From positions 192,001 to 256,000 of IMG/VR virus record IMGVR_UViG_3300031088_000782: DNA of 64,000 bases. The stretch is one strand, 5' to 3'. Below the pieces are notes generated by a model. The model had not been told where the DNA came from, did no database searches, and saw only the letters and a list, made by a program, of their open reading frames with translations. The DNA is from a virus (Duplodnaviria > Caudoviricetes). Position 1 is the stretch's first letter, and each line of letters starts with the position of its first letter. The position numbers were made by a program, and so were the translations under genes. Of the stretch, positions 1-64,000 are shown piece after piece.

Positions 1-140
1 GCACCTATTACAGCATCAATAGGATCTATCATTCCAACATAATCGACCGTGGATGACTGTGTATGAGTATCAGAAATCGAAACACCACTGATGTTCTGTA
101 AAACATTCTGATACTCAACAACTTCATGTTTAAAATTCAT
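1..140 (-). CDS. Hypothetical protein, runs off the left edge (partial)
   Basis: ATG at 140-138 preceded by GGAGG; open frame MNFKHEVVEYQNVLQ... to the window edge. Confidence 0.4.
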   Translation of the reverse strand, partial: MNFKHEVVEYQNVLQNISGVSISDTHTQSSTVDYVGMIDPIDAVIG

Positions 141-277
141 ACACAACCCTCCCCGAGATTATGACTTCTATAATTCAATATCTTCTGTATCTGACAATTC
201 TTCAAAAATTTCTTTACTTAATCTTAACAGAACAATTCAATTAAGTCAAATAAGAGAAAATAATAAATCAATAATCG

Positions 278-1603
278 TCAGTTAGTGTTGAACATAGCTC
301 TCAGCTTAGAAAAAGGCCTTGATGAAACATACTTCTGAGACACGGATTCTGGCTCATCATCAAAATTTTCGGTATCGTTCAAAAGCACATTCAAAGCAAC
401 AACAAAATCAATTTCTTTATCTTCATTAATTTGACGAATGTTTTCAAGAATTTGCTCATTTAAAGCATCAACAGCTGCCTCAACTCGTCTGGTTCTTTTA
501 TCTGCCTTATTCCAGAAGGAGGGATTCTTAGAAATGTTCATATAATAATCAGTTCCGAGCAAGGAGTTCAATTTGTTCAAACGGTCAGTATACTCAACTT
601 CAACAGAAATTCGCCTACTTTCAGAAACATCTTTTGTTTTGATGATCCGTGCCAATTCATTCATGTTCACATAAACTTCATTAATCTTTCTCTCCAAAGA
701 CTTACTTCCGTCCAATTCTGAATGATGAAGTTTTATCATATTGTTTAAATCATACACAGCATTGATTAAACCTTCTGAATAATTTTGGAAAGTTTTCTTA
801 ATCGTTTTCTTTTCTTTCTTTTCGCGCAGCTTCTCAGATTTATTGCGTTTCCTGATAATATAAACAGTTGTTGTGGCACCTGCACCAAGGAGAACTATGA
901 TTCCAATAACTTTCCCAACAGCTTCCATATCTTTACCAAATTTAGCATTTTGCGCATCAATCTCTGCATGAATAACGTTGTCATAAGAAGAAATTAATTT
1001 ATCACTGTTAGAAATTAAGCTCCATCCAGCATCATCAACTGGGGTTTGTCCGAGAATATTATTGAATTCTTTTTCAACTTCACCCTGATCGCTTGAAACA
1101 GAAAAAGCATCTTGTTTTCCATCAGAAACAACAATAATAGTATCATATTGGTCACCTACGCCATCTTTGATAGCTTGAGTGATTTCATCAACGTTTTTGT
1201 TTTTCAGTGCAGATTCGGGAATGACAGTAATTCCGATGTCAGTATTAGAAAATTTTTGCGCTATTGTTTTACCCTCAGACAGAGACGTTCCTTTTTGTTT
1301 AAAAACCGTGTAATCGGATAGTCCAACAATAGAATCTTCGATAATGTTGCTATCTGTTTTTTGAGCAGAAACATTTTTTGCTTTTACATCAGATTTATTT
1401 TTCTCTTGCTTGTATTCAGTAGAGGCAGAATAGGAAACCGAATTCTCTTCAGCTTTATTTGCGAGTGCAGAATATCCCAAAAGTCCACCGAGCGTCAAAC
1501 TCAAAGTAATTCCAAGTGAAACAACAAGCTCTAACAATGTATATCCTGAATCATTTTTTGATAATTTTATTTTAAAAACAAACTTCTTGAACTTCTCCCT
1601 CAT
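278..1603 (-). CDS. Membrane protein with type IV prepilin-like N-terminus, extracellular domain, second TM helix and cytoplasmic tail
   Basis: Basic leader then KNDSG|YTLLELVVSLGITLSLTLGGLLGY (class III signal, Glu+5); second hydrophobic segment VIGIIVLLGAGATTTVYII followed by RKRNK; start taken at ATG 1603 (AAAGG RBS). Confidence 0.7.
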   Translation of the reverse strand: MREKFKKFVFKIKLSKNDSGYTLLELVVSLGITLSLTLGGLLGYSALANKAEENSVSYSASTEYKQEKNKSDVKAKNVSAQKTDSNIIEDSIVGLSDYTVFKQKGTSLSEGKTIAQKFSNTDIGITVIPESALKNKNVDEITQAIKDGVGDQYDTIIVVSDGKQDAFSVSSDQGEVEKEFNNILGQTPVDDAGWSLISNSDKLISSYDNVIHAEIDAQNAKFGKDMEAVGKVIGIIVLLGAGATTTVYIIRKRNKSEKLREKKEKKTIKKTFQNYSEGLINAVYDLNNMIKLHHSELDGSKSLERKINEVYVNMNELARIIKTKDVSESRRISVEVEYTDRLNKLNSLLGTDYYMNISKNPSFWNKADKRTRRVEAAVDALNEQILENIRQINEDKEIDFVVALNVLLNDTENFDDEPESVSQKYVSSRPFSKLRAMFNTN

Positions 1604-1717
1604 AACAAGCCTTTCTGAAATATGACACAATTATTTAAAATAATTCTACCAAACAGAAATAACATAGATTCGATATTCAATAATGCACAATAAAATAACT
1701 ACCGCGAATGGAGCAAT

Positions 1718-4755: not shown

Positions 4756-6849
4756 ATGTTTATGACTGTAAGAGATGATTATCTTCAAAAAATCGAACAA
4801 ATAAAGAAGTTTTCAGAACACTATTATCATAAGAATGAAAGCCTAATTTCGGATCAAACATATGACCTTCTTGTTGAAGAAACCGCAAGAGCAGGGGAAG
4901 AAAACGGATGGACAGAGCATCTTCCTCTTGTTAAAGAAGTTGCCGCTGGGACAATAGATTACGAAGCTGACATTGAACACAAAACACGAATGTTATCTCT
5001 CAACAAAGTGAATTCAGAAGAAGAGCTGGAAAAGTTCATTACAAAACTTAATCCTGACGATGATAACAATTTCTTTATTATCGAACCTAAACTTGACGGA
5101 TTGGCTTTTCGTGTCTTTTACAACAAAGGAAAAAGAGAGTTAGTATCCTCTCGCGGCGATTCTTATTATGGGAAAAATCTCACTCTACGTGCCAACGAAT
5201 TAAATATCGAGGGACTTCCCAAAACTATTTCAAGCACACAAAAATTCGAAGTCAGAGGGGAACTGTTTATCACCAACGAAAACTATGCAAAAGTTCAACA
5301 ATTTAGAACTGCACGTTGGGCTAAGTACGAAACTGAAAAGAAGAAAGCGAAAGCAGAAAAGCGTAGATCGTCAATGACAGCACCTTCTAAACCTTTCTCA
5401 TTACAAAGGTCAGCTGTGTCAGGATCAATCAATGCAAAACCGGGAACCGACACAACCGAAATCATTCTCAGTTTCGCCGCTTATGATGTTCTCTTTGACA
5501 ATGAATCAAAACAGCCCGATACATATATTGAAGTATTGGATTTCGCCAAAGAAAACGGTATCTTAACAGCATTGTCGCTGATGACGGAAATTGATTCAAA
5601 TTTGAACACACTTGAACAAATTGAAGAATTCGGAAAGTTAAGAAATTTTCTACCTTATCCTACTGATGGATCTGTTGTGAAAGCAAATTATACAGAAACA
5701 AGAAAACTCTTAGGTGCCGGAGAAAAGCATCCGAATTGGGCAGTAGCCTACAAGTACGAAGAAGAGGTAAAACCGGCTGTAATGGCCCGTATTGAACGTT
5801 CTGTGGGCAAATCAGGTGCAATCTCCTATGTCGGAATATTTGAAAAACCTGTAGAACTTTCAGGATCGCAAGTCAGTCGAGCAACATTAAACAACGCAGA
5901 CATGATAAAAACTCTTGATGTAAGAATTGGAGATACTGTCATGGTTCGAAAAGCAAACGGTATTATCCCAGAAGTGCTTGCCGTGAGAATCGCTGATCGA
6001 GAAAAGAAAAATGTTGGAGAACCTTACGAGGCACCCACGACATGTCCACAATGCTCTGAAGATTTGGATACACAATCATCAATCATCTGGAGATGCCACA
6101 ATCCAAATTGCTCAAAACTTGAAACAATCATTTACGCAATCAGTAAAAAGAATCTAGACATACAAGGTTTAGGTCGATCCACTGTTGAAACACTTGTTGA
6201 ACAAGAAAAAATTAGTGACGTAGCAGACCTGTTTTCGATGACTCAACAAGATTGGGAAAATTTGATCATTCGATACAGCGAAGCAGGAAAGCCTGTCTAT
6301 TACGGAAAAACAAAAACAGTTACAACACTAAAAAGCTTAGCCAAAGCCCTTGAAGCACCATTAGAAAAAATTATCTCATCCCTGAACATTCGATTTGCAG
6401 GAAGCACATTCGGAAGAAGATTCGCTAAACATTACAAAAGTTTCGACAAGTTTGTCAGCACCAATATTTCTGAACTCACTCAAATCGAAGGAGTCAAAGA
6501 CAAAGCACAAATTATTATTGAAGAATTATCAAAGAAAAAAGACCTTGTTGATAAATACAGAAAAGTTGGTTTTGTCAATCTTGAAATAGAAGAAACATCT
6601 CAAAATGATTCTCAAACTATTTTCGACAATGAGAATATTGTGATCACAGGTGCTGTACCAGGATATTCACGAGATGAGATAAAGAGCCTTATTGTTAATT
6701 TTGGTGGTAAATCAGGCGGAAGTGTTTCAAGTAAGACAACGCTATTAGTAGCACCTGAAAATGAAAGAGAAACAACTAAAGCCAAAAAAGCAAAAGAATT
6801 AGGAATAAAAATAATTACGCCAGAAGAATTTTTAGACAAAATTCAATAA
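4756..6849 (+). CDS. ligA: NAD-dependent DNA ligase
   Basis: EPKLDG adenylation motif, EVRGE, DGSVVK, AVAYKY, OB domain, C4 zinc finger (CPQC...CHNPNC), HhH region, C-terminal BRCT. Confidence 0.95.
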   Translation: MFMTVRDDYLQKIEQIKKFSEHYYHKNESLISDQTYDLLVEETARAGEENGWTEHLPLVKEVAAGTIDYEADIEHKTRMLSLNKVNSEEELEKFITKLNPDDDNNFFIIEPKLDGLAFRVFYNKGKRELVSSRGDSYYGKNLTLRANELNIEGLPKTISSTQKFEVRGELFITNENYAKVQQFRTARWAKYETEKKKAKAEKRRSSMTAPSKPFSLQRSAVSGSINAKPGTDTTEIILSFAAYDVLFDNESKQPDTYIEVLDFAKENGILTALSLMTEIDSNLNTLEQIEEFGKLRNFLPYPTDGSVVKANYTETRKLLGAGEKHPNWAVAYKYEEEVKPAVMARIERSVGKSGAISYVGIFEKPVELSGSQVSRATLNNADMIKTLDVRIGDTVMVRKANGIIPEVLAVRIADREKKNVGEPYEAPTTCPQCSEDLDTQSSIIWRCHNPNCSKLETIIYAISKKNLDIQGLGRSTVETLVEQEKISDVADLFSMTQQDWENLIIRYSEAGKPVYYGKTKTVTTLKSLAKALEAPLEKIISSLNIRFAGSTFGRRFAKHYKSFDKFVSTNISELTQIEGVKDKAQIIIEELSKKKDLVDKYRKVGFVNLEIEETSQNDSQTIFDNENIVITGAVPGYSRDEIKSLIVNFGGKSGGSVSSKTTLLVAPENERETTKAKKAKELGIKIITPEEFLDKIQ

Positions 6850-8075: not shown

Positions 8076-9971
8076 TTATGCCCTATACACAAAAATTCTA
8101 TTACCAGCAGTATAAATAGGTAAGAACCCATTATCTAACATTATCTCTCTATTATTCATTTTAGTTCTGTCGAAATCATTACCAAAATCAAGACCTAATA
8201 ATCTATCTGCACCAACCTTGACAACAGAAGAATTAGAATACTTCTTTTTTGTCTTCAAATTATAATGAACCAAAATCGGGCCATTCGATTTCATTTCATA
8301 AAAACCCAAAGAATTCAAGAATATATTTTTCTTAGTAGTATGATTGAAGTCAACATAACTTACAACAGAAGAAGGTTTTGCATCTTTTAAAAATAATTGA
8401 AAAAGCTTTCCCGAAGCCCCATGAATGATATAATCATCACGAACAGCATATCTAATAAACTCATATTCATATTTGCTATCAAAACGAGATTTGCCGAAAG
8501 TAGCAACAGACATCAGTTGATCATCTTGATAAAGCCCATAACAATAAATCTGTTTTTTAGCAACACCCTGAATATGAAACCTATGCAAGAAAATGTTAGC
8601 AGTCTCCTGATCGATTCTTCGACATGTCAATTTTCGAGCAGAAAGTTTAACAACATTCTTATTTGTTTTCATATTAATCATTTTAAGAATAGCATCCTCA
8701 GTATCCCAATCATAAACCTGAATCAAAGAAACATCATTATTGTGTGCTGCCATAGCTCTTTGATAGTGGTAGTATTTCGTTGGCTTTCTGTGCTTAGAGC
8801 AATTAACTATTTTGCAATTTGAAATAATACATCCAAATGACTTGACAATATTGTGAGAAATAGTAGGATTAATGTCAATTAACAAGCTACGATCATTAAT
8901 ATTTAGATCAAACTGAAATTTACCAACAGGATATTCAAAATCTATATTATATACATCATTACAGGACTCTTTTATTAGTTGAGCAAAAGCTTTGTTTAAA
9001 TTAGAGACTTTTCTGCTTTTTTGGTTTTTCCCATTTTTTAAATTTTCAGAAAATGTTTTTTGAGCCTTAGCAACAATGTCTGAATTCAGCATAACGTTTT
9101 CAAAACCATATTTTTCAATATTTGTCTTGATTCTCTTTTCTTTAACAATGTCTGATTGATTAGGATATTCAACGCCATACTTTTCCATGACAGTTTCCAT
9201 AATCTTTTTCTTAATAATTTTAGAGCCAAAAGGATTTTTTGATCCATACTTCTCCAAATTTGTATCATCTGCGCGTTTTCTGATTTCGGGATCTTGAATA
9301 GCGTATTTAACCCCATATTTTTCAAGATTAGTTCTAACGGTCTTTTCTTTGAATTCATCAAGCATCATAGGATGTTCAACACCATACTTGTCAATATTAG
9401 CTTTAATAATCTTCTGTTTTAATTCATCAGTTGATTGAGGATTCTCTACCCCATAATTTTTTAAACTTGTCTGCTTTCTCTTTTCTTGTGCATTTTTTCC
9501 ATTAATAATTTTAGATGCACAATCACTGCTACAATATTTTCTTTTAGACAAAGGATCTGGAAAATCAAATTTATTTCCGCATTCTAAGCATTCTTTTTGG
9601 TGGATATTTGTGCAGTATTTTTGAGTTGCTGAAGTTGGAATAAATCTTGTTTCGCACAATTCGCAAACTCTTTCCTCTGCTGATTCAGAAAAAGACTTAT
9701 TTCTTAATTCCTGTTCACACTTTAATGAGCAAGTTTTTGAAACCTTATAGAATTCTTTATTGCAAATAACACAATTACGCTTTTTCTTTTGAGAGGCACC
9801 ACGACATTTAGTAGAACAAAATACTTTATCAACCTTCATAGTTGATTTTAATTCAAATTCATTATCACAAACTAAACAATTTTTAAAATGTTTTTTAGCA
9901 CAACGCTTTTTTCTTCGTTTATCAGGTGTAAAAAGATCATTACATACTTCACAACAAATCTGATATTCCAT
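8076..9971 (-). CDS. Homing-endonuclease-like protein: Cys-rich zinc ribbons, KYG repeats, Vsr/PD-(D/E)XK-like nuclease, C-terminal GNAT-like domain
   Basis: Multiple CxxC...CSxxC units; six (E/D/K)-K/N-YG repeats; FEYPVGKFQFDL...LIDINP; C-terminal YEFIRYAV...GASGKLF...SYVD...LGF. Confidence 0.75.
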   Translation of the reverse strand: MEYQICCEVCNDLFTPDKRRKKRCAKKHFKNCLVCDNEFELKSTMKVDKVFCSTKCRGASQKKKRNCVICNKEFYKVSKTCSLKCEQELRNKSFSESAEERVCELCETRFIPTSATQKYCTNIHQKECLECGNKFDFPDPLSKRKYCSSDCASKIINGKNAQEKRKQTSLKNYGVENPQSTDELKQKIIKANIDKYGVEHPMMLDEFKEKTVRTNLEKYGVKYAIQDPEIRKRADDTNLEKYGSKNPFGSKIIKKKIMETVMEKYGVEYPNQSDIVKEKRIKTNIEKYGFENVMLNSDIVAKAQKTFSENLKNGKNQKSRKVSNLNKAFAQLIKESCNDVYNIDFEYPVGKFQFDLNINDRSLLIDINPTISHNIVKSFGCIISNCKIVNCSKHRKPTKYYHYQRAMAAHNNDVSLIQVYDWDTEDAILKMINMKTNKNVVKLSARKLTCRRIDQETANIFLHRFHIQGVAKKQIYCYGLYQDDQLMSVATFGKSRFDSKYEYEFIRYAVRDDYIIHGASGKLFQLFLKDAKPSSVVSYVDFNHTTKKNIFLNSLGFYEMKSNGPILVHYNLKTKKKYSNSSVVKVGADRLLGLDFGNDFDRTKMNNREIMLDNGFLPIYTAGNRIFVYRA

Positions 9972-10049: not shown

Positions 10050-10169
10050 ATGAAAATAAAATCAATAAAAGAAATTGCTCCTGAACCTGCAAGATGTATT
10101 GAAGTCGATTCACCTGACCGACTTTTTGCTGCCGGAGGAGAATTTGGGAATGCTTTCGTAACTCACAAT
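10050..10169 (+). mobile_element. Intein C-fragment (blocks F and G), class-3 type
   Basis: Block F Cys (ARCIEV), block G Thr-His-Asn, +1 Ser; own ATG and AAGGAAAG RBS. Confidence 0.85.
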
Positions 10170-11198
10170 TCTGTTGTTCAAAGAAACATCATTTTCGGTG
10201 CTATTATGAGGCCGGAGAGTTGGCGCTTCCTTGGGATAGACCTGAAAAAAGTTGAACTTTCTTCCTTTCGCGCTTACTCAAATGTTGTTCTAGGTATTGC
10301 AACAGAAATCGAAGATGCGCTAACTGTTTTGCGTTTTGCTCAACAAACAATGATGAAACGTTATGCAGAGATGGAACAACTTGGAGTAAATAACTTTTTG
10401 GATCTTCCAGAAAAAGGACAAGCTTTATTGGTAATGGTTGACGAGGCTGGTGAGCTTCTTTCTCCATCGGGTGTGAAATCAGAAGAAGCTAAGGCTGAAG
10501 ATGAGCTTAAAGGCGAGGCAGCTATGATTATTGGCTCGGTAGCGCGTTTGGGAAGAGCGGCGGGAGTTCATCTTGTAATTGCCACTCAGAGGCCGGACGC
10601 CAAGATAATATCGGGCGAAACTAAGGCTAACCTTGGTGTTCGAATTAACTGTGGGCGAACAGATTCCAACGCTTCGTCAATGATTTTGGGAACTGGTGAG
10701 GGAACAAGAGTAAAGGCTAATCCTCGCGGTCGTTTATATTTGAGAATCTATGGTAGTGGTAATCATGGGCAAGGATTTTTTGCTGACCAGTCTTGGATTG
10801 ACGAATATTTGGCAAGTAAGGGATTGAACCCTGATGGGACAGAAATCAACAGTGGAAAGAAGTCTCGTTTGGCTAATGTCACAGATATGTCTCAGTTCGA
10901 AACTGGCGATTTGGATGCTCGTGAGGGCGTAGACAATTCGTCAATTATTGAGCAAATCAGAGACGAAGAGAGCGATGAGAGTTTCAATAATGTCATGAGT
11001 CAAATTGATGGAGACGAGGAAGAGGACGATGATTGGGGATTCGATGATTCTGATGATACTTCTTCAACTCAACACGATGACGGAAAACTTGGTCGACCAG
11101 AATTGGGAACAGGAGAGAAAAATCCTGATAAATTTAAGAGACCAGAAGAGTCATGGGATCTAGATCTGGAAAGTTTGATTGAAGAAAACAACGAGTAA
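10050..11198 (+). CDS. Split-intein C-fragment fused to the C-terminal half of an FtsK/SpoIIIE-type (TcpA-like) ATPase
   Basis: First 40 aa end in ...RCIEVDSPDRLF...FVTHN|S; then IDLKKVEL, Walker B LLVMVDEAGEL, GRAAGVHLVIATQRPD; Walker A absent; acidic tail. Confidence 0.85.
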   Translation: MKIKSIKEIAPEPARCIEVDSPDRLFAAGGEFGNAFVTHNSVVQRNIIFGAIMRPESWRFLGIDLKKVELSSFRAYSNVVLGIATEIEDALTVLRFAQQTMMKRYAEMEQLGVNNFLDLPEKGQALLVMVDEAGELLSPSGVKSEEAKAEDELKGEAAMIIGSVARLGRAAGVHLVIATQRPDAKIISGETKANLGVRINCGRTDSNASSMILGTGEGTRVKANPRGRLYLRIYGSGNHGQGFFADQSWIDEYLASKGLNPDGTEINSGKKSRLANVTDMSQFETGDLDAREGVDNSSIIEQIRDEESDESFNNVMSQIDGDEEEDDDWGFDDSDDTSSTQHDDGKLGRPELGTGEKNPDKFKRPEESWDLDLESLIEENNE

Positions 11199-15529: not shown

Positions 15530-15784
15530 ATGAAAATAGGATCCGCAATAGTTGTTTTTGTTTTAGGGGCAATCATGGCTTTCGCTGTGAAAGACGTTAT
15601 TCCTAATGTTAATCTGGAACTCATTGGGTTTATTCTTATGGGTGCTGGTCTTGTTGGTTTTCTTGTTACTTTGTTTTTCACAATGTATAATTCCAAAAAG
15701 GTTTCTACAACTAAAACAGGAATAGATGCAGATGGAAACAAAGTCACAAAACGAGAGTCAGATGGGATTGATAATTCGTTGTGA
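15530..15784 (+). CDS. Small two-TM protein resembling actinobacterial DUF6458
   Basis: MKIGSAIVVFVLGAIMAFAV...NLELIGFILMGAG pattern; strong RBS. Confidence 0.65.
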   Translation: MKIGSAIVVFVLGAIMAFAVKDVIPNVNLELIGFILMGAGLVGFLVTLFFTMYNSKKVSTTKTGIDADGNKVTKRESDGIDNSL

Positions 15785-51012: not shown

Positions 51013-51963
51013 ATGATTTACAGTGATTTTTTCCCATATGTTATAGCGGGAGGGATAACAGCCCTTCTCGTGCTACTCGGAGTACTCATATTTTTTGCTG
51101 TAAAAAGTAGTTCTCAGAAAATGAACTATAACGAACAGCTTGAAGCACTTATTCAAGACGATGATGAAGATCAAGTTCAAGTAAAAATGGGGCTTGTCCA
51201 AAAATGGAATCATTATTGGACAGAATTATTCAAAACCGCAGGATTCGCCAGATATAAAGAGGAAAACAGTTCTGCAGGTAGAGATGTTCTATTCGGAATG
51301 ATTATATTTGCAGTATTAGTATCACTCCTTGCAAGAAATCCTATCATCGGTGTTGCTGTATCTGTTGCTCTCACCTTTGGTATCTCTGTTATCGTCAAAA
51401 ATGTTTCCAATAAAAAATCAGATAGTATCAATTACCAATTACCAGGATTCATTTTCGCCCTCAAAGCTAACATTCAAGCATCAGAAACAAACGAAAGAGC
51501 TATGCTTAAAGTTATTGATAGTATGCCTTCGCCATTATATGAAGATCTTGTTATTGTCAAAAACAAACTGCTTGCCAGTGCATCATTTAAAGAAGCCTTG
51601 GAAAATCTTGCTGAAAAAACCGCTTCAAAAGACCTTAGATTCTTAGCTGCATGTATGATTCAAGCCGCAAACAGCGGAGCAAACCTTGAATCGCAGCTTG
51701 ATTCTATTCAAAAAGTTCTTGAACAAAGAAGAAAAGTAGCTGACGAAATTAATAGAGCTGTCAAATCAGCCCAACCTGCAATCTGGTTAGCATCAGTTGT
51801 TATCCCCGGATTGTTTTTAGCAAGCTACTTCTTCGATGTAAGTTCACGTTCATTCTGGTTTGTTGAACCTATATCCTGGTTTGCACTTATCGCAACAGTA
51901 GCCTGCTACATCGGCGGAATGGCATTAGTGAAAAAACAAGTCGATGGAATTAAGAACCTATAA
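51013..51963 (+). CDS. tadB: Tad pilus platform protein TadB (T2SSF domain)
   Basis: QLPGFI...SGANL...LDSI...QRR, TM helices; follows tadA. Confidence 0.85.
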   Translation: MIYSDFFPYVIAGGITALLVLLGVLIFFAVKSSSQKMNYNEQLEALIQDDDEDQVQVKMGLVQKWNHYWTELFKTAGFARYKEENSSAGRDVLFGMIIFAVLVSLLARNPIIGVAVSVALTFGISVIVKNVSNKKSDSINYQLPGFIFALKANIQASETNERAMLKVIDSMPSPLYEDLVIVKNKLLASASFKEALENLAEKTASKDLRFLAACMIQAANSGANLESQLDSIQKVLEQRRKVADEINRAVKSAQPAIWLASVVIPGLFLASYFFDVSSRSFWFVEPISWFALIATVACYIGGMALVKKQVDGIKNL

Positions 51964-52128: not shown

Positions 52129-52722
52129 ATGAGAAAAGAACAAATAGAATTTACCATCAATAAAAAATATATTCTCAACTCAAACGTTGTCAAGCATCAT
52201 TTCGAAAAAGCAAAAATTGCATCATACCTGCGAAATCTTGCCTCTGAAGAGGGAATAGAGCGACACCCTGAAAGAGATCTTGCAGACAGAAGACTCAGCG
52301 AAATAAAAGACTTCGCAGCAAAAACCTTGAACAAATCACGAGCACGCAAAAAAATGAACAAACAAGGGGCGGATGAAGAAGAGATTCTGAAAAGACTTGA
52401 CGAAATTGAACAAGAAAGCGGAGAAATCAAAACAACACAAGTTCCTTTCATGTTCACTCATTTCAAAATCACTCTCACAGCCTGTCCTCCGACGAAAAGA
52501 AGGATGGACCCACCGAATCTCTACCCCACCCTCAAAGCCCTCATAGACGGGCTTACAGACGCTTCCTGGTGGGTTGATGATCAATTTGCAAACCTTGTTG
52601 AAGTATCATTCAAATATGGTGGAATTTCTGGAGAAAAGGATTATTTTAAACTTATCCTTGACATAGAAGAAGTAGAAGACTGTTCAGGTTATGTTCTCGT
52701 TCCAGAATTTGTCAAAAGATGA
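52129..52722 (+). CDS. RusA-like Holliday junction resolvase
   Basis: PPTKRRMDPPNLYPTLKALIDGLTD...WVDD, matching the RusA D-x-x-N...K...D...DD pattern. Confidence 0.75.
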   Translation: MRKEQIEFTINKKYILNSNVVKHHFEKAKIASYLRNLASEEGIERHPERDLADRRLSEIKDFAAKTLNKSRARKKMNKQGADEEEILKRLDEIEQESGEIKTTQVPFMFTHFKITLTACPPTKRRMDPPNLYPTLKALIDGLTDASWWVDDQFANLVEVSFKYGGISGEKDYFKLILDIEEVEDCSGYVLVPEFVKR

Positions 52723-53911: not shown

Positions 53912-54391
53912 ATGTCTGATAGATACGTTTATACTGCCAACATGACGAACTTCTTTTCAAGAGAATTATATATGTATAGCCTCGGTGACATTAAATTCAA
54001 AAAACCGATTTCGTTGAAAAAGGTAGCTTATACAACTGCTTTCGTAATTATTTGGACACTTCCTATTATACTTATTTTTGGAATTCAGCTTAATCCATTC
54101 TATTTTGCTATTGTGCTTTTGCCGCCTTTTGTTTTGGGTAATTTTGCTGCTAAGCCTGTATGGGGCGGTAGAGGATTAGTTGATTTTATTAAAACTTTGA
54201 GTGGATTCATTGCTGAACCTAAAGGGTGGACGGATTTGAATGCTACTAATGTATTAGATAAAGAAGTTCTATTCATTGAACAAGAAATTTGGATAAGCCG
54301 ACGAAGAGAATTGTATCTTCTTGCTCAACTGAAAGAGCAGAAAGAGCGTGAGTCTGGAAAAATCAAACCCCGAAAGAAATTGAGAAAGTGA
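53912..54391 (+). CDS. TcpE-like conjugal transfer membrane protein
   Basis: YTANMT...F..E...YSLGD..F..PI, two TM helices; directly upstream of the VirB4-like ATPase. Confidence 0.7.
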   Translation: MSDRYVYTANMTNFFSRELYMYSLGDIKFKKPISLKKVAYTTAFVIIWTLPIILIFGIQLNPFYFAIVLLPPFVLGNFAAKPVWGGRGLVDFIKTLSGFIAEPKGWTDLNATNVLDKEVLFIEQEIWISRRRELYLLAQLKEQKERESGKIKPRKKLRK

Positions 54392-54397: not shown

Positions 54398-55594
54398 ATG
54401 GCAAACAAGTTTAATTATTCAACAAGTATGTTTATTGGAACTACGACTAATGGTATTGAAATGCCTGTATTCTTTGATACTCATACTCCTATCTTCAACA
54501 ACAACCCGCCTGGAATACTTATTACAGGTCAACCGGGTTCTGGTAAAACATTCTTGGCTATGACTTTGACAGCTATTTGTGCAATTATTGGAAAAATCAC
54601 AGTAGTGCTTGACCCTAAAGGTGATTTTCTTGCTCTCAATGAAATTAAAGAAGATGTTGGAGATATAAGTTTCTGGAATCTGGCAGATAGGAGACAAAAG
54701 GGAATATTAGATCCTTTTTATATGGCTGATGATAAGGGTGATCAATTGGATCTTGTTCTCAGTGTTATTGACATGTTTGTGGGAGGTTTGACTGGCGATC
54801 AGTTGACTCACCTTTCTCCTGTTGTCAAAGATGTTCAAGAAATGCATGTTCCCTCTCTTTTGGCGGTTACGGATGCTTTACAGACTTCGCCTCATTCAAT
54901 AGCTAGAAATTTGGGAGCGCATTTGGATCTTGTTAGAAGATTACCTTTTGCTGATTTGTGTTTCGCACCTGGTTCAAGGAAGAGAAAAAACGTTAAGTTT
55001 GATAGTGGTGTTACTGTTATTACATTGATTGGTCTTGAACTTACTCCTGAGTCGGACAATAATAATGTCAGCCAAACTAACGCAAATAAGAAACGACTTT
55101 CTTCAGCTATTTTCTTTCTTTTGACAGACTTTATTCGAAGAATCATGTACAATGATACTTCTGATAGTCCAAAAACTTTAATTATTGACGAAGCATGGGC
55201 TGTTTTATCTACCCCTGCTGGTGCTGAATGCATTAAATCGGTTGCCCGTCTTGGTCGTTCTAAGCGCCTTGCTATGATTCTTGTTACTCAAAACAATTCA
55301 GATGTGAAAAAGATGAGTATTGAAAACACAATTACAACACGTTTTGCTTTTAAAACAGATCCAACTGAGGCTTCTGACATTGTTGAAGGTATGCAGCTTC
55401 CTATTGGGGAAAGTTTTGAGAATGCTCTTATAGGTTTGAATAATGGAGAATGCCTGTTCAAGGACTTCCAGGGGCGTTATTCTACTATACAGATCAGCGA
55501 TTGGCGTAGAAGCTGGACTGAAGCGTTTGAAACTAATCCTCTTGAAAAAATGCGAGCACAAAAGAAAAAACAAGCGTTGGCAAAGAATAAGTAG
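54398..55594 (+). CDS. VirB4-like conjugation ATPase (ATPase domain only)
   Basis: ITGQPGSGKT, LDPKGD, IIDEAW, RLGRS...ILVTQN. Confidence 0.8.
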   Translation: MANKFNYSTSMFIGTTTNGIEMPVFFDTHTPIFNNNPPGILITGQPGSGKTFLAMTLTAICAIIGKITVVLDPKGDFLALNEIKEDVGDISFWNLADRRQKGILDPFYMADDKGDQLDLVLSVIDMFVGGLTGDQLTHLSPVVKDVQEMHVPSLLAVTDALQTSPHSIARNLGAHLDLVRRLPFADLCFAPGSRKRKNVKFDSGVTVITLIGLELTPESDNNNVSQTNANKKRLSSAIFFLLTDFIRRIMYNDTSDSPKTLIIDEAWAVLSTPAGAECIKSVARLGRSKRLAMILVTQNNSDVKKMSIENTITTRFAFKTDPTEASDIVEGMQLPIGESFENALIGLNNGECLFKDFQGRYSTIQISDWRRSWTEAFETNPLEKMRAQKKKQALAKNK

Positions 55595-55671
55595 ATTCTG
55601 ATATTCCTTTATGGAACAAGAACCACAACTACCACTTTATAGCTATTTTATGTAGGAAGGAATTGCTGAGT

Positions 55672-56565
55672 ATGGCATCTAAAGGAAAGAAAGGTCTGAA
55701 AAGTAACGGACTGATTCTCATAGCAATAGGCGTAGTATCTCTTATTCTGTTTGGAGTCGTTTTCTCAGTAGCTTCGAAACTATTTCAGACAGAAACATAT
55801 TACGTTCTTAAACAAGACGTTCCGACGAGAACACAGGTAACAGAAGAAATGCTTGAACCTGTTGTTACATCTGAGGGAACAGCACCAGAAGCAGCTATCG
55901 GTTTAGCTGACGTTCAGACAGGAAATGTTTACACCCAATACCCACTTCTGTCAGGAGATATTCTTACTATGTCTAATGTTGGAGCAATGGAAGACATTTC
56001 TGTTGGTATTCCTGATACTTGGGTTATCACAAACTTCTCAGTAAACGCGGATGATGCTGTTGGCGGAAGAATCCAAAGAGGAACATATTTTGACATTATG
56101 GTCACATCCGATGATGGTTCATTCTATCCTTTTGTCAATGTTCTTGCACTTGACACAACAGTAGATCTCAGCAATGCATCCTCTTCTGAAGCTGCTGATT
56201 CCGAAGAGGCACATGAAGGACAAACCTCACAATATGTTGTTGGTATGTCTCCTGAAAATGCCGCTAAATTACAAAACATTGTCAAAAAGTACAACAATGA
56301 CATCAAACTCGTTCTTTCACCAAGACAGAATGAATACGAGAAACCACAACTTGCTTCTTACAGCGGTAACTTCAAGTTTGCATCAGGTGACGAAACTATT
56401 GCACCAGGACAAGGTGAAGATGGAGAGCAAACTGACTACACATTCACTGATGTTGAACGTGATGCATTCGGAAGACCAGTTGAGAAACTTGAAAACTGTT
56501 CATCAGGAAACTCAAAGGTTGCTGGTGAAGATTGTAAAGACAGTGAAACACAATCTGATGAGTAA
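55672..56565 (+). CDS. cpaB: Flp pilus assembly protein CpaB/RcpC (SAF domain)
   Basis: N-terminal TM helix, SAF pattern YVLKQDVPTRTQVTEEML, GGRIQRGTYFDI, NVLAL. Confidence 0.8.
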   Translation: MASKGKKGLKSNGLILIAIGVVSLILFGVVFSVASKLFQTETYYVLKQDVPTRTQVTEEMLEPVVTSEGTAPEAAIGLADVQTGNVYTQYPLLSGDILTMSNVGAMEDISVGIPDTWVITNFSVNADDAVGGRIQRGTYFDIMVTSDDGSFYPFVNVLALDTTVDLSNASSSEAADSEEAHEGQTSQYVVGMSPENAAKLQNIVKKYNNDIKLVLSPRQNEYEKPQLASYSGNFKFASGDETIAPGQGEDGEQTDYTFTDVERDAFGRPVEKLENCSSGNSKVAGEDCKDSETQSDE

Positions 56566-56786: not shown

Positions 56787-58142
56787 ATGCCAGTACGTCC
56801 AAAAGCAATATTTGTAGGGCCAGCAAAGCTTGGCGAACATTTAGAGAAATTGAGAAAAGGCTGGGACTTCGTTAGCATTGTGCCAGATATCGCAAGTCTT
56901 TGGAACGGCCTCAACAACCAGACTATTGATGACAATGTTCAGGTAATAATAACCTTAGACGGATTCTTCAAACCAGATTCGGAAGAAGATTCATCATTTG
57001 AGCAGTTAGTTGCCATGATGTCCCCCCATTGTTTCTTCTTAATTGTGTCTTATATGCCAGAATACGAAAGCCAAATGAGATCAAGAATCAGCTCAGAGTC
57101 TCATGCTGTCGGAAATGGTGGAAATGAAGAATACTTTTTCGTTGACCCAAAACGTCCCAACCTGACAATCGACAGAGCACTTGCAGAATATATTAAAAAC
57201 ACTGAAAACAAAGAAGTAGCCGCTATTCTTGATGGAAGAGAAATAGAGCAAGATCCCGCTACACAAGAACTGCAAGAAGTTCAACCAGCTCCTGTAGCCA
57301 CAGATTATAACTTTGATGACATTGAAAGTGACAAGTTGGGACAGGTTGTTGCTATCACATCAAGTAAAGGTGGATCCGGCAAGTCTACTGTTGCAACAAC
57401 CTTAGCAACATATTTAGCTCATTCTTCAATCAACTCCGTTAAAGAAGGACTAGAAGAAAAGCCACTCAAAATCTGTATTCTCGACTTGGACGTTAGGGAC
57501 GGTCAGATTGGATTCTTAACAGGAAACCTTCAGCCTACAGTTCTTCATATGAGATCGCATGGTATTGATCCTCAAACTCTCAGTGAAACAATCATTTACA
57601 GTGAAAGACTGAAAGTAGATTTGCTATTAGCACCTAAAAGACCAAGACTTTCAGATGATACTCCAGCTGAATTCTACTTAGAACTTATTCAATTTTTGAA
57701 ACGATTCTATGATTATGTCATTTTGGATACTTCTGTGAACTATCTTGATCCATTATTGGAGAAAGTTGCTTATCCGATTGCAGATCAAATTATTTTCGTT
57801 TCAGACATTGTTGTTCATTCTGTTTATTCAATGACACGATGGATTCAAGAGGTTACAAAACCTAAGAGTCAGCAGGGAATGGGAATAGACAAAAAGAAAA
57901 TCGGTATTGTTGTCAATAAATCAATGGCGAACATCAGCATGTCAGGCGAAAAAATCGCTAAAAGTGCACTTGGTCTCCCAGTTCTGACAGTTATACCAAA
58001 CAACGCTAAACTTTTGGCACACGCAGCTAACCTTCAGTCAATGGAGCAAGTTCTGAGACATGCAGATATCAAAAACTCTATCAGGCTATTAGCGCGTCGT
58101 ATCGTCGGTAAAAAATATAAACTTACTGATAACGTGTCATAA
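56787..58142 (+). CDS. CpaE/TadZ-type MinD/ParA-family ATPase with an N-terminal receiver-like domain
   Basis: SSKGGSGKST, ILDLD...GQ, YDYVILDT. Confidence 0.85.
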   Translation: MPVRPKAIFVGPAKLGEHLEKLRKGWDFVSIVPDIASLWNGLNNQTIDDNVQVIITLDGFFKPDSEEDSSFEQLVAMMSPHCFFLIVSYMPEYESQMRSRISSESHAVGNGGNEEYFFVDPKRPNLTIDRALAEYIKNTENKEVAAILDGREIEQDPATQELQEVQPAPVATDYNFDDIESDKLGQVVAITSSKGGSGKSTVATTLATYLAHSSINSVKEGLEEKPLKICILDLDVRDGQIGFLTGNLQPTVLHMRSHGIDPQTLSETIIYSERLKVDLLLAPKRPRLSDDTPAEFYLELIQFLKRFYDYVILDTSVNYLDPLLEKVAYPIADQIIFVSDIVVHSVYSMTRWIQEVTKPKSQQGMGIDKKKIGIVVNKSMANISMSGEKIAKSALGLPVLTVIPNNAKLLAHAANLQSMEQVLRHADIKNSIRLLARRIVGKKYKLTDNVS

Positions 58143-61624: not shown

Positions 61625-61668
61625 AAAGTCCATAAGGTATATTATTCGTTATATACCTTATGGACTTT
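61625..61668 (-). terminator. Hairpin after the PilT-like gene
   Basis: 18-bp arms aaagtccataaggtatat / atataccttatggacttt. Confidence 0.7.
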
Positions 61669-61684
61669 ATTTTTCTAAAAACAT

Positions 61685-63409
61685 TTAACCAAGTTTTTTC
61701 AACAATTCGTTAAAACGGATAATGCTTGTGGCTTGACGGCGAGCAGCGTCTACCTCACATCTATCCTCAGAAACAGCCCTCACCAGAGCATGTTCCATTG
61801 TAATCTCACGATCTATCTGATACTGTTTGATCCCCTCAATGTCAGCATGAAGGATCATTCGTGAAACTTCTTCATCAACATTAAGAATTTCACGAACAGC
61901 AAATCTTGACTCGCCATCCTTCGACTGCAATAGAACCTGATTAGCAAAACCACGAACATTCTCTGACAATGAACCAAGAATTCGAATCTGATCATCTCCC
62001 TGATACAAAGAACGAATACGGTTTACAGTAGCCGGGGCTGAATTAGTGTGCATAGTCGAAATAGCCAAATGGCCTGTCTCAGCAGCTCTCAACAATTCAT
62101 TAACCTCAGTCTGATTCCTAACCTCACCAATCATTATAATGTCTGGTGCCTGACGCATAGCACTCGTCAAAGCGCCAGCAAAGGTTCGGGTATCTCTACC
62201 AACCTCACGTTGAGTAATCAATGCCTTACCCTCTGTTCCGTACATGAACTCAACAGGTCTCTCAACCGTAATAATCTTACAAGCCCTGTCCATCTGAATC
62301 TTATGTATCAAAGAAGCCAAAGTGCTCGATTTTCCAGTTCCCGTTGGCCCATTCATCATGACCAAACCATTCGGCAAATCACACCAATCAATCAAATCTT
62401 GCTCAACACCCAAATCTTCAGGCATAGGAATGATGTTACTGATAATACGGAACACCATAGCAAAATCTCCACCATTAGCCTTCAACACAGACAAACGCAA
62501 ACGTCTCCCCTGATACTTTCCCTTCTTTACGACATAAGAAGCATCCAATTCAAGATCCGTAGCAAAATCAGATTGCGCAACATGTGAAGTAATATTTGTG
62601 AAAATTCTCTGCACAATAGTAGCAGGAATAATACCAAAATCACTCACACGTCGAATGTCACCTAAAACAGTATAAGCAATATAATCATTCGGAGAAATAT
62701 GAATATCCGAAGCCTTCAAATCAATTCCAAAACCAATAATCGCATCAATATCAAACCCAGAAAACTCATCCTCAAAATCATCCTCACTCAAATCATAAGC
62801 ACCAGAGAAAGAATCCTCACTCTCATCCCCATTAAAAGCAGCATCTAAAATAGAATCAACATCATCCGAAACGGGATCATCACTATCATGCTCATCAATA
62901 GTATTCAAAACATTCTCAAACGAATCAAACTGAGCAGTGTCCTCAATACTATCATCTTCATCAATGTCTAAATCAGTATGAGAATCATAATCAGAATTTT
63001 CATAACCTTCATCAAACTCTTCATCAACAGAATCGTAAGAGCGAGAACGGTAATGTGAATCATAATCATCCTCATTGCCATTCACATCAACATAAAAATC
63101 AGGAATACTATGAGCAGATTCTTCGTATTCTCCATGCCCCTCATCTTTGACAACATACACATCCTCAACACCAGGCAAAGCATCATCCTCGATCTCATAA
63201 CCAATAAGATCTTCATTCGGATTACCCTCAATCAAATCACGAGAATGCTCAAAAGTTCCAGTAGACAAATTGCTCACATCAACATCAAGAGACATCAGAT
63301 CAAAACTATCCTCATACTCTTCCTCCTCATCAGAATCATCTAACAAAGGATTCACAACATCATCCTCATCGTCCAATAAAGGATTCGAGTCATCATTCAG
63401 ATCATCCAT
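61685..63409 (-). CDS. PilT/PilU-like type IV pilus ATPase with a very long acidic N-terminal extension
   Basis: ASDIHI, GPTGTGKSST, ITVERPVEF, QREVGRDT, RQAPDIIMIGEVR, AAETGHLAISTMHTN. Confidence 0.88.
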   Translation of the reverse strand: MDDLNDDSNPLLDDEDDVVNPLLDDSDEEEEYEDSFDLMSLDVDVSNLSTGTFEHSRDLIEGNPNEDLIGYEIEDDALPGVEDVYVVKDEGHGEYEESAHSIPDFYVDVNGNEDDYDSHYRSRSYDSVDEEFDEGYENSDYDSHTDLDIDEDDSIEDTAQFDSFENVLNTIDEHDSDDPVSDDVDSILDAAFNGDESEDSFSGAYDLSEDDFEDEFSGFDIDAIIGFGIDLKASDIHISPNDYIAYTVLGDIRRVSDFGIIPATIVQRIFTNITSHVAQSDFATDLELDASYVVKKGKYQGRRLRLSVLKANGGDFAMVFRIISNIIPMPEDLGVEQDLIDWCDLPNGLVMMNGPTGTGKSSTLASLIHKIQMDRACKIITVERPVEFMYGTEGKALITQREVGRDTRTFAGALTSAMRQAPDIIMIGEVRNQTEVNELLRAAETGHLAISTMHTNSAPATVNRIRSLYQGDDQIRILGSLSENVRGFANQVLLQSKDGESRFAVREILNVDEEVSRMILHADIEGIKQYQIDREITMEHALVRAVSEDRCEVDAARRQATSIIRFNELLKKLG

Positions 63410-64000
63410 AAATCTCTCTCCTTAAACACACCGTCTTCAGTAATAACAGGAACGATATCAATACGCCCCTCCTGCCATAAACCAATCTCTTTAGAAATCT
63501 GCTCCAACTTACGAGCAGGGCCAATATTTTTACACACCCAAATAACTTTCTTATACAATCTATTATCAGCACGATAAGCTCTCAAAGTTTTCTCATAAGA
63601 ACCACTCGCTTTATTGTTAATCTCAATCTCCACAGCAATACTCTCCGGTGTTCCATCCTCATTTCTTGGACGAACAACAACAAGGTCAGGAACATGGTAA
63701 GCCAAACGAATATTGAAAGGCGGCATCAAAGCCCACATGTACTCATTCCCCAAAACTTGCTCAGGGCTTGGGCCGAAATTAACACCACCAGCACGCTCCC
63801 AAGAACGAAATTGTTTCTCAATCTCAGCCAACAATTCAGGACGATACACATCAGATTTATCAAACATCTTAATCTTTCCAAAAGCAGATTGAATCTCCAG
63901 CTCACTCACAAGCTTCTCACCAAACACCATCTCCCCCTTACCATCAACACGATTACGCACAGGAAATTCAGGAAGATTAAGAACATTCACATTAGCACCC
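63397..64000 (-). CDS. Partial protein (5' end outside the window) with a PD-(D/E)XK-like, replication-relaxation-type C-terminal domain
   Basis: HVPDLVV...IAVEIEINNK...YEKTLRAY; frame open to the window edge. Confidence 0.55.
   Translation of the reverse strand, partial: GANVNVLNLPEFPVRNRVDGKGEMVFGEKLVSELEIQSAFGKIKMFDKSDVYRPELLAEIEKQFRSWERAGGVNFGPSPEQVLGNEYMWALMPPFNIRLAYHVPDLVVVRPRNEDGTPESIAVEIEINNKASGSYEKTLRAYRADNRLYKKVIWVCKNIGPARKLEQISKEIGLWQEGRIDIVPVITEDGVFKERDLWMI

What the first reader, a model, noticed from the sequence alone, without database searches (positions are those of the whole stretch)
1..64000. Large low-GC conjugative element with its own replication/recombination toolkit and actinobacterial-type genes
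Seen: LigA, topoisomerase B and A, RadA, RecX, RusA-like and RecB-like genes are interleaved with Tad, TcpE, VirB4-like and FtsK-like genes; there are no ribosomal, metabolic or virion genes. Known: ordinary plasmids rarely carry both an NAD ligase and a complete type IIA topoisomerase; class-3 inteins are best known from Actinobacteria and their phages, and DUF6458-type proteins are actinobacterial. Inference: this is a megaplasmid-scale element whose GC content is far below that of its likely host.
Basis: partly seen in the sequence, partly recalled or inferred. Interest (0 to 1): 0.65.

Follow-up and report, generated by a model that had tools for sequence, protein, structure and literature searches.

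The report
Giant capsid-less conjugative element, replication core
This window is the DNA-repair and cell-to-cell transfer core of a roughly 682-kb, AT-rich mobile element that virus catalogues file as a prophage. I found no virion or cell-core genes in the 309 kb I could read, so it most likely belongs to a widespread, undescribed family of giant conjugative plasmid-like elements.

Summary

The "would refute" tests came out negative as far as they could be run:
- The IMG/VR record is a 309.5-kb "provirus" slice. Its proteins sit on one contig of 681,645 bp (Logan/ENA) and 681,631 bp (JGI).
- VirB4 relatives at 49-83% identity lie on 0.5-0.83-Mb contigs in many samples.
- Ten capsid, terminase, portal and sheath families are absent from this record. 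Eight of them are also absent from all five relatives, including a circular 248-kb one.
- 16S rRNA, RpoB, ribosomal protein S2 and EF-Tu-type GTPases are absent from all six records. Tyrosine integrase, ParB and DnaA are absent from the five tested.
- The shared core is a Gram-positive-type type IV secretion system, a Tad pilus, a bacterial-type replisome and recombination genes, tRNA arrays and, in four of the five assembled records, a tmRNA.

New here: VirB4 is split into two genes, and the window holds only the ATPase half. The window's FtsK-like gene is only the C-terminal half and starts with a 40-residue intein C-fragment.

An actinobacterial host is suggested but not shown.

This scan already reached the same overall reading on another window of this genome (e1-5375882). 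The other 372 kb of the parent contig could not be read.

The parts
4756..6849 (+). NAD-dependent DNA ligase (LigA) with adenylation, OB, HhH and BRCT domains
   Evidence: Pfam. Orthologs in relatives are only 25-30% identical.
8076..9971 (-). Homing-endonuclease-like gene (DUF7487/HNH). It belongs to a 13-member paralog family; the other window members are 11265-13259, 25195-26775, 27529-29472, 33040-34428 and 52726-53910.
   Evidence: Pfam; PHROGs; self-BLAST clustering.
10050..11198 (+). C-terminal half of a split FtsK-like DNA translocase. Residues 1-40 (nt 10050-10169) are an intein C-fragment ending THN, followed by Ser. Walker B is present and Walker A is absent.
   Evidence: PF01580 profile positions 53-219 only. 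The intein-like start is conserved in G002-G004. Motifs. The N-half with Walker A lies at record 86429-87853.
13367..14317 (+). ADP-ribosylglycohydrolase. Cargo gene with no ortholog in the relatives.
   Evidence: Pfam E 2.6e-60.
15530..15784 (+). DUF6458 small membrane protein. Cargo gene present only in this record.
   Evidence: Pfam E 1.7e-12. Atlas look-alike clusters are mostly Actinomycetota.
17452..18429 (+). PD-(D/E)XK (RecB/Cas4-like) nuclease, conserved in all four assembled relatives
   Evidence: Pfam.
19050..19634 (+). RecX-like regulator of RecA
   Evidence: Three RecX HTH domains, E 6e-7 to 1.4e-5.
22961..25096 (+). GyrB/ParE-type topoisomerase IIA B subunit
   Evidence: Pfam. 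Orthologs are 37-40% identical in all four relatives but lie elsewhere in their maps.
29531..31987 (+). GyrA/ParC-type topoisomerase IIA A subunit
   Evidence: Pfam E 4.5e-118. Syntenic in the relatives. Best database matches are only 30-34% identical.
34568..40939 (+). 2123-aa RHS-repeat polymorphic toxin-like protein. Cargo gene with the lowest GC in the window (29-30%).
   Evidence: Pfam RHS_repeat and DUF6531. No ortholog in relatives. GC.
42456..43859 (+). RadA/Sms recombination protein
   Evidence: Pfam. Relatives are 55-68% identical.
45062..46045 (+). Conserved 327-aa protein with an N-terminal OB fold resembling SSB and a helical C-terminal domain. Candidate transfer-associated ssDNA-binding protein (tentative).
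   Evidence: AF2 model, pLDDT 68. Foldseek best hits are actinobacterial and other SSBs, E 5e-3, prob 0.97. Present in all four relatives.
46254..46556 (+). 100-aa protein with one hydrophobic helix, directly upstream of the tadB-like gene. Candidate pilin, but it lacks a canonical Flp motif.
   Evidence: Hydropathy and sequence. Orthologs in G002 and G004.
46879..47784 (+). TadB-like platform protein (T2SSF)
   Evidence: Pfam.
47796..51005 (+). CpaF/TadA-like pilus ATPase interrupted in its Walker A loop by a 462-residue class 3 intein with a LAGLIDADG endonuclease (nt 48933-50318)
   Evidence: Pfam. Alignment with intein-free orthologs from G002 and G003 and the intein-bearing G004 ortholog. 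Boundaries.
51013..51963 (+). TadC-like platform protein (T2SSF)
   Evidence: Pfam.
52129..52722 (+). RusA-like Holliday-junction resolvase
   Evidence: phrog_34, E 3.9e-17.
53912..54391 (+). TcpE-family small membrane protein of Gram-positive type IV secretion systems
   Evidence: Pfam E 8e-10.
54398..55594 (+). C-terminal ATPase half of a split VirB4 (AAA_10, Walker A GQPGSGKT)
   Evidence: Pfam E 8e-52. It matches residues about 448-813 of an 847-aa Nocardiopsis plasmid VirB4. All 120 listed homologs are 358-415 aa. The N-domain gene lies at record 39537-40922.
55663..56565 (+). RcpC/CpaB-like protein (weak match) with an N-terminal membrane anchor
   Evidence: Pfam E 5.6e-4, below cut-off. 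Hydropathy.
56787..58142 (+). TadZ/CpaE-like ParA-family ATPase
   Evidence: Pfam CbiA/AAA_31. Present in all four relatives.
61685..63409 (-). Second traffic ATPase (T2SSE; PilT/VirB11-like), overlapping the stop of the next gene
   Evidence: Pfam E 4e-33.
63397..64000 (-). C-terminal part of an 801-aa relaxase-like protein that continues beyond the window
   Evidence: Weak Replic_Relax match, E 0.0015, below cut-off. No plasmid-database match. Orthologs in G002, G004 and G005.

Best explanation
The window is the maintenance-and-transfer core of a giant extrachromosomal conjugative element of about 682 kb and 35% GC. Its family ranges from 0.25 to 0.83 Mb.

Proposed mechanism (inferred, not shown):
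- A Tad-type pilus brings cells together. Its parts are the CpaF-like ATPase, TadB/C, a TadZ-like ATPase and a candidate pilin.
- A Gram-positive-type type IV secretion channel passes DNA. Its parts are TcpE, the two-piece VirB4, three VirB6-like proteins, TcpC, a wall hydrolase, a VirD4-like coupling protein and an FtsK-like translocase made from two halves.
- The DNA is processed by the relaxase-like protein at the window's right edge.
- In the recipient, the element's own primase, DnaE replisome, LigA and GyrA/B rebuild and supercoil the very long incoming strand.
- RecA, RadA, RecX, RecG, RusA, SbcCD and the PD-(D/E)XK nuclease repair it.
- A 66-gene tRNA array covering all 20 amino acids, a tmRNA and an SRP RNA make expression of the AT-rich genes largely independent of the host.

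The gene content, its conservation, and the absence of virion and cell-core genes are shown. The transfer mechanism, the topology and the host are inferred.
For: Size:
- Window and record-end proteins lie on one contig of 681,645 bp (Logan/ENA) and 681,631 bp (JGI).
- VirB4 relatives sit on contigs of 504-828 kb. One cluster recurs at 513-541 kb and is seen on 135 contigs.

Not a phage as far as can be seen:
- PF03237, PF05065, PF07068, PF17289, PF04466, PF04984, PF07230 and PF04451 are absent from all six records.
- PF03354 and PF04860 are absent from this record.
- In all cases the control genomes gave matches.
- PHROGs found no virion gene among the window's unknowns.

Not a cell:
- No SSU rRNA, EF-Tu-type GTPase, RpoB or S2 in six records, about 1.8 Mb in total.
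- No relative above 35% identity in GTDB species genomes.

Conjugative:
- TcpE, the VirB4 C-half and Tad genes are in the window.
- A VirD4-like coupling protein, TcpC, VirB6/TrbL-like, NikA-like and hydrolase genes, plus the VirB4 N-domain, lie at 34-51 kb of the record.
- The relatives share this content. Most of these genes are also in the circular 248-kb G005, but the TadB/C, CpaF-like and hydrolase genes had no G005 match.

Replisome and repair core.

tRNA, tmRNA and SRP RNA.

No integrase: no tyrosine integrase in the five records tested and no serine recombinase in this record.
Against: - Only 309.5 kb of the roughly 682-kb contig could be read. The pipeline that cut the record treated the remainder as non-viral, and I could not see what it holds.
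- Circularity is inferred only from two assemblies that agree in length.
- Hallmark searches were sequence-profile searches. Very divergent capsid proteins would be missed, and only two core unknowns were folded, one of them poorly (pLDDT 47).
- The relaxase call is weak (E 0.0015).
- No ParB, DnaA or known plasmid initiator was found, so replication start and partition are unexplained.
- G002-G004 may be fragments or misassemblies.
Confidence: 0.72

Rival explanations
1. It is a true huge phage. Its virion and packaging genes are either in the unread 372 kb or too divergent for profile searches, and the secretion and pilus genes are accessory.
For: - IMG/VR and CheckV class all six records as viral.
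- tRNA arrays, tmRNA, homing endonucleases, inteins, PhoH and a private replisome are typical of huge phages (PMC7162821).
- Several large core proteins remain unassigned.
Against: - Ten hallmark families are absent. This includes the circular 248-kb relative and the untrimmed 345-438-kb contigs.
- The universally shared unknowns of capsid-like size resolved to the VirB4 N-domain, VirB6 paralogs and an OB-fold protein.
- The part cut away was judged non-viral, so it is unlikely to be the virion module.
- A complete secretion system is conserved in synteny across a GC range of 31-47%.
Confidence: 0.12
2. It is an integrated element (a giant ICE or a defective prophage) inside the chromosome of a low-GC bacterium, and the 682-kb contig is a chromosome fragment.
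For: - IMG/VR labels this record and G001 as 'provirus'. That means flanks with cell-like markers were trimmed at gene boundaries.
- No plasmid initiator or ParB was found.
Against: - No tyrosine integrase in the five records tested and no serine recombinase in this record.
- Two assemblies end within 14 bp of the same length.
- Relatives recur at similar sizes in many samples, and one is circular.
- No relative was found in any of about 185,000 GTDB species genomes.
Confidence: 0.1
3. It is part of the genome of an ultra-small cell, for example a Patescibacteria-like episymbiont of 0.5-0.8 Mb. That would explain the replisome, repair genes, tRNAs, tmRNA, SRP RNA, pili and secretion genes.
For: - Contig sizes of 0.5-0.83 Mb and GC of 31-47% fit such cells.
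- The gene set looks chromosomal.
Against: - No 16S rRNA, RpoB, S2 or any EF-Tu-family GTPase in about 1.8 Mb from six relatives, although all 14 control genomes gave matches.
- 66 tRNAs with many duplicates are packed into about 30 kb.
- There are 13 homing-endonuclease-like paralogs and several inteins.
- The family is absent from GTDB.
- A circular relative is only 248 kb.
Confidence: 0.03

Closest known systems
'Hodor' conjugative megaplasmids (Yuan et al., bioRxiv 2026, PMC12934698)
   Same: - Very large elements recovered from metagenomes.
- Filed as huge phages by virus-detection pipelines.
- No TerL of their own.
- Encode VirB4, VirD4 and a hard-to-detect VirB6.
   Different: Hodors:
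- are 211-389 kb and 45-47% GC, from human gut, with Bacillota-like genes
- have Rep_3, ParA/ParB and ParM
- have a MOBH-like relaxase, sortases and giant surface proteins.

This element:
- is about 682 kb
- lacks ParB
- has a DnaE replisome, gyrase, ligase, RecA and RadA, a 66-tRNA array, tmRNA, SRP RNA, a Tad pilus, a split VirB4 and inteins.

No sequence kinship was tested directly. It resembles the Hodors in concept but is not shown to be a member.
Actinobacterial megaplasmids with tRNA arrays or tmRNA: Bifidobacterium breve pMP7017 (190 kb, conjugative, 20 tRNAs and a tmRNA), Curtobacterium pusillum pCPAA3 (567 kb, tmRNA, Pol III subunits) and the giant linear plasmids of Mycobacterium avium (PMC10832533, PMC8929003, PMC12803027)
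   Same: - Large plasmids that carry translation-support RNAs. pMP7017 is shown to be conjugative.
- In pCPAA3, DNA polymerase III genes as well.
- Curtobacterium also carries small plasmids of 32-35% GC in a host of about 70% GC, a precedent for a large GC gap.
   Different: - pCPAA3 is 66.7% GC.
- None of the plasmid-database records exceeds about 35% identity to this element's VirB4, GyrA, FtsK or DnaE, and the relaxase-like protein has no match at all.
- pMP7017 could not be fetched for a direct comparison.
Tcp conjugation system of Clostridium perfringens pCW3 and related Gram-positive type IV secretion systems, and VirB4 of actinomycete plasmids (e.g. Nocardiopsis changdeensis NZ_CP074136.1)
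   Same: - TcpE, TcpC, a VirB4-type ATPase, VirB6-like proteins, a wall hydrolase and an FtsK or VirD4-type coupling ATPase.
- The nearest cultured VirB4 is from Nocardiopsis, at 34% identity.
   Different: - Here VirB4 is two genes. In the circular relative the C-half is upstream of the N-half.
- The FtsK-like ATPase is split by an intein.
- A Tad pilus module is interleaved with the secretion genes.
- The element is more than ten times larger.
Huge phages (Al-Shayeb et al. 2020, PMC7162821)
   Same: - Size class.
- tRNA arrays and tmRNA.
- A private replication and repair toolkit.
- Homing endonucleases.
   Different: No detectable capsid, portal, terminase or sheath gene, and a conserved conjugation apparatus instead.

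Membership tests
Gram-positive-type conjugative type IV secretion system (Tcp/MPF-FATA-like) | VirB4-family ATPase | tested here: met
   AAA_10, E 8e-52. The N-domain gene matches residues 12-436 of a full-length plasmid VirB4, hhalign 99.7%, E 5e-26. It is present as two genes.
Gram-positive-type conjugative type IV secretion system (Tcp/MPF-FATA-like) | Coupling protein (VirD4/TcpA-type) | tested here: met
   TrwB_AAD_bind and TraG-D_C domains in the 811-aa protein at record 34346-36781, plus the split FtsK-like ATPase.
Gram-positive-type conjugative type IV secretion system (Tcp/MPF-FATA-like) | TcpC (VirB8-like), TcpE and VirB6-like channel proteins | tested here: met
   - TcpC, E 4e-11.
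- TcpE, E 8e-10.
- TrbL/VirB6, E 4e-5, just below cut-off, with two large paralogs.
Gram-positive-type conjugative type IV secretion system (Tcp/MPF-FATA-like) | Relaxase and oriT | tested here: inconclusive
   Replic_Relax match of only E 0.0015, below cut-off. A NikA-like accessory protein is present. I did not examine oriT.
Gram-positive-type conjugative type IV secretion system (Tcp/MPF-FATA-like) | Demonstrated cell-to-cell transfer | not testable with these tools
   The element is uncultured.
Tad (type IVc) pilus | CpaF/TadA ATPase with TadB and TadC platform proteins | tested here: met
   T2SSE and two T2SSF proteins lie in one cluster that is conserved in G002-G004.
Tad (type IVc) pilus | Flp-type prepilin with a G/XXXXEY processing motif | tested here: inconclusive
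   The 100-aa candidate at 46254-46556 has one hydrophobic helix but no canonical motif.
Tad (type IVc) pilus | Prepilin peptidase (TadV) | not tested
   No search was made for Peptidase_A24.
Tailed phages (Caudoviricetes) | Large terminase | tested here: not met
   - PF03237, PF17289 and PF04466 absent from six records.
- PF03354 absent from this record.
Tailed phages (Caudoviricetes) | HK97-fold major capsid protein and portal | tested here: not met
   - PF05065, PF07068 and PF07230 absent from six records.
- PF04860 absent from this record.
- These were profile searches only; no exhaustive fold screen was run.
Double-jelly-roll capsid viruses with FtsK/HerA-type packaging ATPase | Double-jelly-roll major capsid protein | tested here: not met
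   PF04451 absent from six records. Only this one family was tested.
Class 3 inteins | No Cys/Ser at position 1, Trp in block B, Cys at block F position 4, Thr in block G, and terminal Asn with a +1 nucleophile | tested here: met
   Glu1; His-Asn-Trp at residues 443-445; Val-Cys-Ile-Thr-Val-Asp at 819; Thr-His-Asn followed by Thr. Splicing itself was not tested.
Hodor megaplasmids | Rep_3 initiator with ParA/ParB partition genes, and a human-gut, Bacillota-like gene pool | tested here: not met
   ParB_N is absent from the five records tested. Rep_3, sortases and MOBH were not tested. The nearest cultured homologs are actinomycete, not Bacillota.
Cellular genome | rRNA, ribosomal proteins, RNA polymerase and translation GTPases | tested here: not met
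   RF00177, PF00318, PF00562 and PF00009 are absent from six records, while all 14 controls were positive. The unread 372 kb was not tested.
Integrative conjugative element | Integrase at an element end | tested here: not met
   No PF00589 match in the five records tested. No PF00239 match in this record.

The most novel reading that the evidence does not exclude
These are members of an undescribed, globally distributed lineage of near-autonomous conjugative replicons of up to about 0.83 Mb. They carry a complete bacterial-type replisome, a recombination system and a full tRNA set with tmRNA and SRP RNA. That would let them persist at 31-47% GC in high-GC Actinomycetota. They would be a third kind of giant element alongside huge phages and chromids. 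Their key motor proteins (VirB4, FtsK, DnaE) are routinely encoded in pieces.
Probability: 0.35. Interest if true: 0.85.

Novelty: new variant of a known kind. Interest (0 to 1): 0.66.

Why it matters
Virus catalogues and huge-phage collections would contain a whole family of half-megabase conjugative elements counted as phages. That distorts estimates of phage size, host range and auxiliary genes.

Such elements would show how far a plasmid can go towards autonomy. This one has its own replisome, gyrase, ligase, recombination system, tRNAs, tmRNA and SRP RNA. They would also offer natural examples of split VirB4 and split FtsK motors.

If the host is a high-GC actinobacterium, this would be an extreme case of a replicon living at half its host's GC content.

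Tried and rejected
An exact-match scan of metagenome contigs found nothing. The second metagenome scan returned only short relatives.
- Close relatives. None were found in phage or plasmid databases by DNA or protein search. A single-protein scan of viral contigs also found none.
- WhiB as an actinobacterial marker: absent.
- ADP-ribosylglycohydrolase as a host clue: its look-alikes come from mixed phyla.
- RecA and RadA best hits. An actinomycete record scores highest, but by trivial margins.
- PDB sequence searches of four core unknowns: empty.
- Fold of the VirB4 N-domain: too poor to use (pLDDT 47).
- pMP7017: not fetched, because the accession I recalled is not in the collection.
- Terminal repeats as evidence of linear replicons: rejected. 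G002's 55-bp inverted repeat and G004's 110-kb exact foldback look like assembly artefacts.
- Trees for GyrB, LigA and RadA: not built, because no tool gave taxon-labelled homologs across phyla.

Full report
**What is in the window**

- Replication, repair and recombination: LigA, GyrB, GyrA, RadA, a RecX-like protein, a RusA-like resolvase and a PD-(D/E)XK nuclease.
- Tad pilus module: TadB/TadC-like proteins, a CpaF-like ATPase, a TadZ-like ATPase and a weak RcpC-like match.
- Secretion and transfer: TcpE, a VirB4-like AAA_10 ATPase, an FtsK-like gene and a second traffic ATPase.
- Other: DUF6458.

The window has no tRNA, no Rfam family and no virion, ribosomal or core-metabolic gene. GC is 29-40% throughout.

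The intein in the CpaF-like ATPase sits in the Walker A loop and spans residues 380-841. It has the class 3 signature: Glu at position 1, His-Asn-Trp in block B, Cys in block F, and Thr-His-Asn followed by Thr. It also has LAGLIDADG motifs. The orthologs in two relatives lack it and a third carries it, so it is mobile.

**The parent sequence**

The held record is one 309,534-bp contig at 35% GC. IMG/VR classes it as a "provirus", and it begins and ends at gene boundaries.

Exact-sequence look-ups place proteins from the window and from the record's far end on a single contig. That contig is 681,645 bp in Logan/ENA and 681,631 bp in JGI. Two assemblies that agree within 14 bp suggest a complete replicon. 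This is an inference.

The record carries 66 tRNA genes for all 20 amino acids, plus a suppressor, packed into about 30 kb. It also carries a tmRNA and, just upstream of it, a small SRP RNA.

**Relatives**

The VirB4-like protein has 270 homologs, and the best 120 are 49-83% identical. Many lie on contigs of 504-828 kb. One cluster recurs at 513-541 kb and is seen on 135 contigs.

Nothing above about 35% identity exists in PLSDB, in INPHARED or in one genome per GTDB species.

Six IMG/VR relatives of 189-438 kb were found. I assembled four of them locally.
- GC ranges from 31.5% to 47%.
- All four have tRNA arrays of 28-50 genes.
- Three have a tmRNA.
- One (G005, 247,792 bp) has a 55-bp direct terminal repeat and is therefore circular.
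- The "inverted terminal repeats" of two others are a 55-bp k-mer artefact and a 110-kb exact foldback, which is a misassembly.

Record positions 24-257 kb, including nearly the whole window, are collinear with three relatives.

**Phage, cell or plasmid**

- Phage test. Ten hallmark families were searched. Eight were searched in all six records and two in this record only. They cover terminase (four families), HK97 and T4 capsids, the NCLDV capsid, two portal families and the tail sheath. None gave a match, while control genomes did.
- Cell test. SSU rRNA, ribosomal protein S2, RpoB and EF-Tu-family GTPases are absent from all six records, about 1.8 Mb in total, although all 14 control genomes were positive.
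- Integration and plasmid maintenance. Tyrosine integrase, ParB and DnaA are absent from the five records tested. There is no serine recombinase in this record.

The genes shared even with the circular relative fall into two groups.
- Replication and repair: DnaG, a two-piece DnaE, DnaX, Pol III delta, RecA, RecG and SbcCD.
- Secretion system: a VirD4-like coupling protein, TcpC, a VirB6/TrbL-like protein and a NikA-like protein.

A wall hydrolase is shared with three of the four relatives but not with G005.

Two giant unknowns of 1360 and 1019 aa are paralogs of the VirB6-like protein. So the conserved unknowns of capsid-like size are accounted for by secretion-system parts.

**Two corrections to the gene list**

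First, VirB4 is split.
- The window's 398-aa protein matches only residues about 448-813 of an 847-aa Nocardiopsis plasmid VirB4.
- A 461-aa universally conserved unknown at record 39537-40922 matches residues 12-436 of the same protein (hhalign 99.7%, E 5e-26).
- All listed family members of the window protein are short, 358-415 aa.
- In the circular relative the C-half gene lies upstream of the N-half, with the TadZ-like gene between them. This is therefore a stable, permuted split and not a frameshift.
- I found no paper that describes a split VirB4.

Second, the FtsK-like gene is only a C-terminal half.
- It covers profile positions 53-219 and has a Walker B motif but no Walker A.
- Its first 40 residues are an intein C-fragment, conserved in three relatives.
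- The N-half, carrying Walker A, lies about 114 kb upstream at record 86429-87853.
- This agrees with earlier scan notes about a multi-piece split intein.

**Host**

For:
- DUF6458 look-alike clusters are mostly Actinomycetota.
- The intein is class 3.
- The SRP RNA is the small type.
- The best-scoring PLSDB record for VirB4, GyrA, DnaE (all of the top 20), RecA and RadA is an actinomycete.
- The only GTDB hits to VirB4 with good scores are Actinomycetota.
- Low-GC plasmids in high-GC Curtobacterium are a precedent.

Against:
- Identities are only 30-50% and several margins are trivial.
- WhiB is absent from all six records.
- No high-GC island of host-derived genes exists. The only window of 47% GC or more is non-coding and lies beyond this window.
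- Even cargo genes such as the RHS toxin are AT-rich.

I put an actinobacterial host at about 50%. Shine-Dalgarno motifs are enriched upstream of genes, and the secretion system is of the single-membrane type, so a Gram-positive-type host is likely.

**Verdict**

The best explanation is a giant capsid-less conjugative element, and this window holds its repair, topology and transfer core.

The nearest published concept is the Hodor megaplasmids, which were also misfiled as huge phages. This family differs from them in size, habitat, replication genes, RNA cargo, pilus and split motors.

The same overall reading was reached earlier in this scan on another window of this genome (e1-5375882). I re-tested it independently and added the contig size, the cell-marker tests, the split VirB4 and the location of the FtsK C-half.

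Noticed in passing
window 54398-55594 and L003:7537-8922 (record 39537-40922): VirB4 is encoded as two separate genes, an N-domain and a C-terminal ATPase. They lie 207 kb apart here. In the circular relative G005 they are adjacent but in C-then-N order. No description was found in the papers searched.
   Followed up: partly
window 10050-10169: The FtsK-like gene begins with a 40-residue intein C-fragment ending Thr-His-Asn, followed by Ser. Its Walker A half lies at record 86429-87853 and ends in a roughly 15-residue tail after the P-loop. A free-standing intein middle piece lies at record 95764-96396.
   Followed up: partly
window 8076-9971, 11265-13259, 25195-26775, 27529-29472, 33040-34428, 52726-53910 and seven more sites in the record: A 13-member paralog family of large homing-endonuclease-like proteins (DUF7487, DUF4379 treble-clef repeats, Mom-like N-terminal domains). 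Two copies sit between gyrB and gyrA.
   Followed up: partly
window 34568-41592: A 2123-aa RHS-repeat toxin-like gene and the small gene after it are absent from all relatives and have the lowest GC in the window. The toxic tip and any immunity gene were not identified.
   Followed up: no
window 4756-6849 and 22961-25096: LigA is only 25-30% identical to the ligases of relatives, so it may have been acquired separately. GyrB lies next to gyrA only in this element; in the relatives it is far away.
   Followed up: no
record 145134-175763 (outside the window): The tRNA array includes a suppressor-type tRNA with anticodon TTA. It also includes tRNAs with A at position 34 for Leu (AAG), Pro (AGG) and Thr (AGT), which are unusual in bacteria.
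   Followed up: no
G004 (L092-L113) and G002 (L041-L058): The inverted terminal repeats that IMG/VR records for these relatives are a 110,183-bp exact foldback and a 55-bp k-mer-length repeat. These are assembly artefacts and do not indicate linear replicons.
   Followed up: yes
whole record and relatives: No DnaA, ParB or tyrosine integrase in the five records tested. How replication starts and how copies are partitioned is unexplained.
   Followed up: partly
L004:8286-9572 (record 56286-57572): A 428-aa protein conserved in all relatives has no family or PDB match. By eye, its consensus resembles a DNA-binding or sigma-like factor. This was not tested.
   Followed up: no
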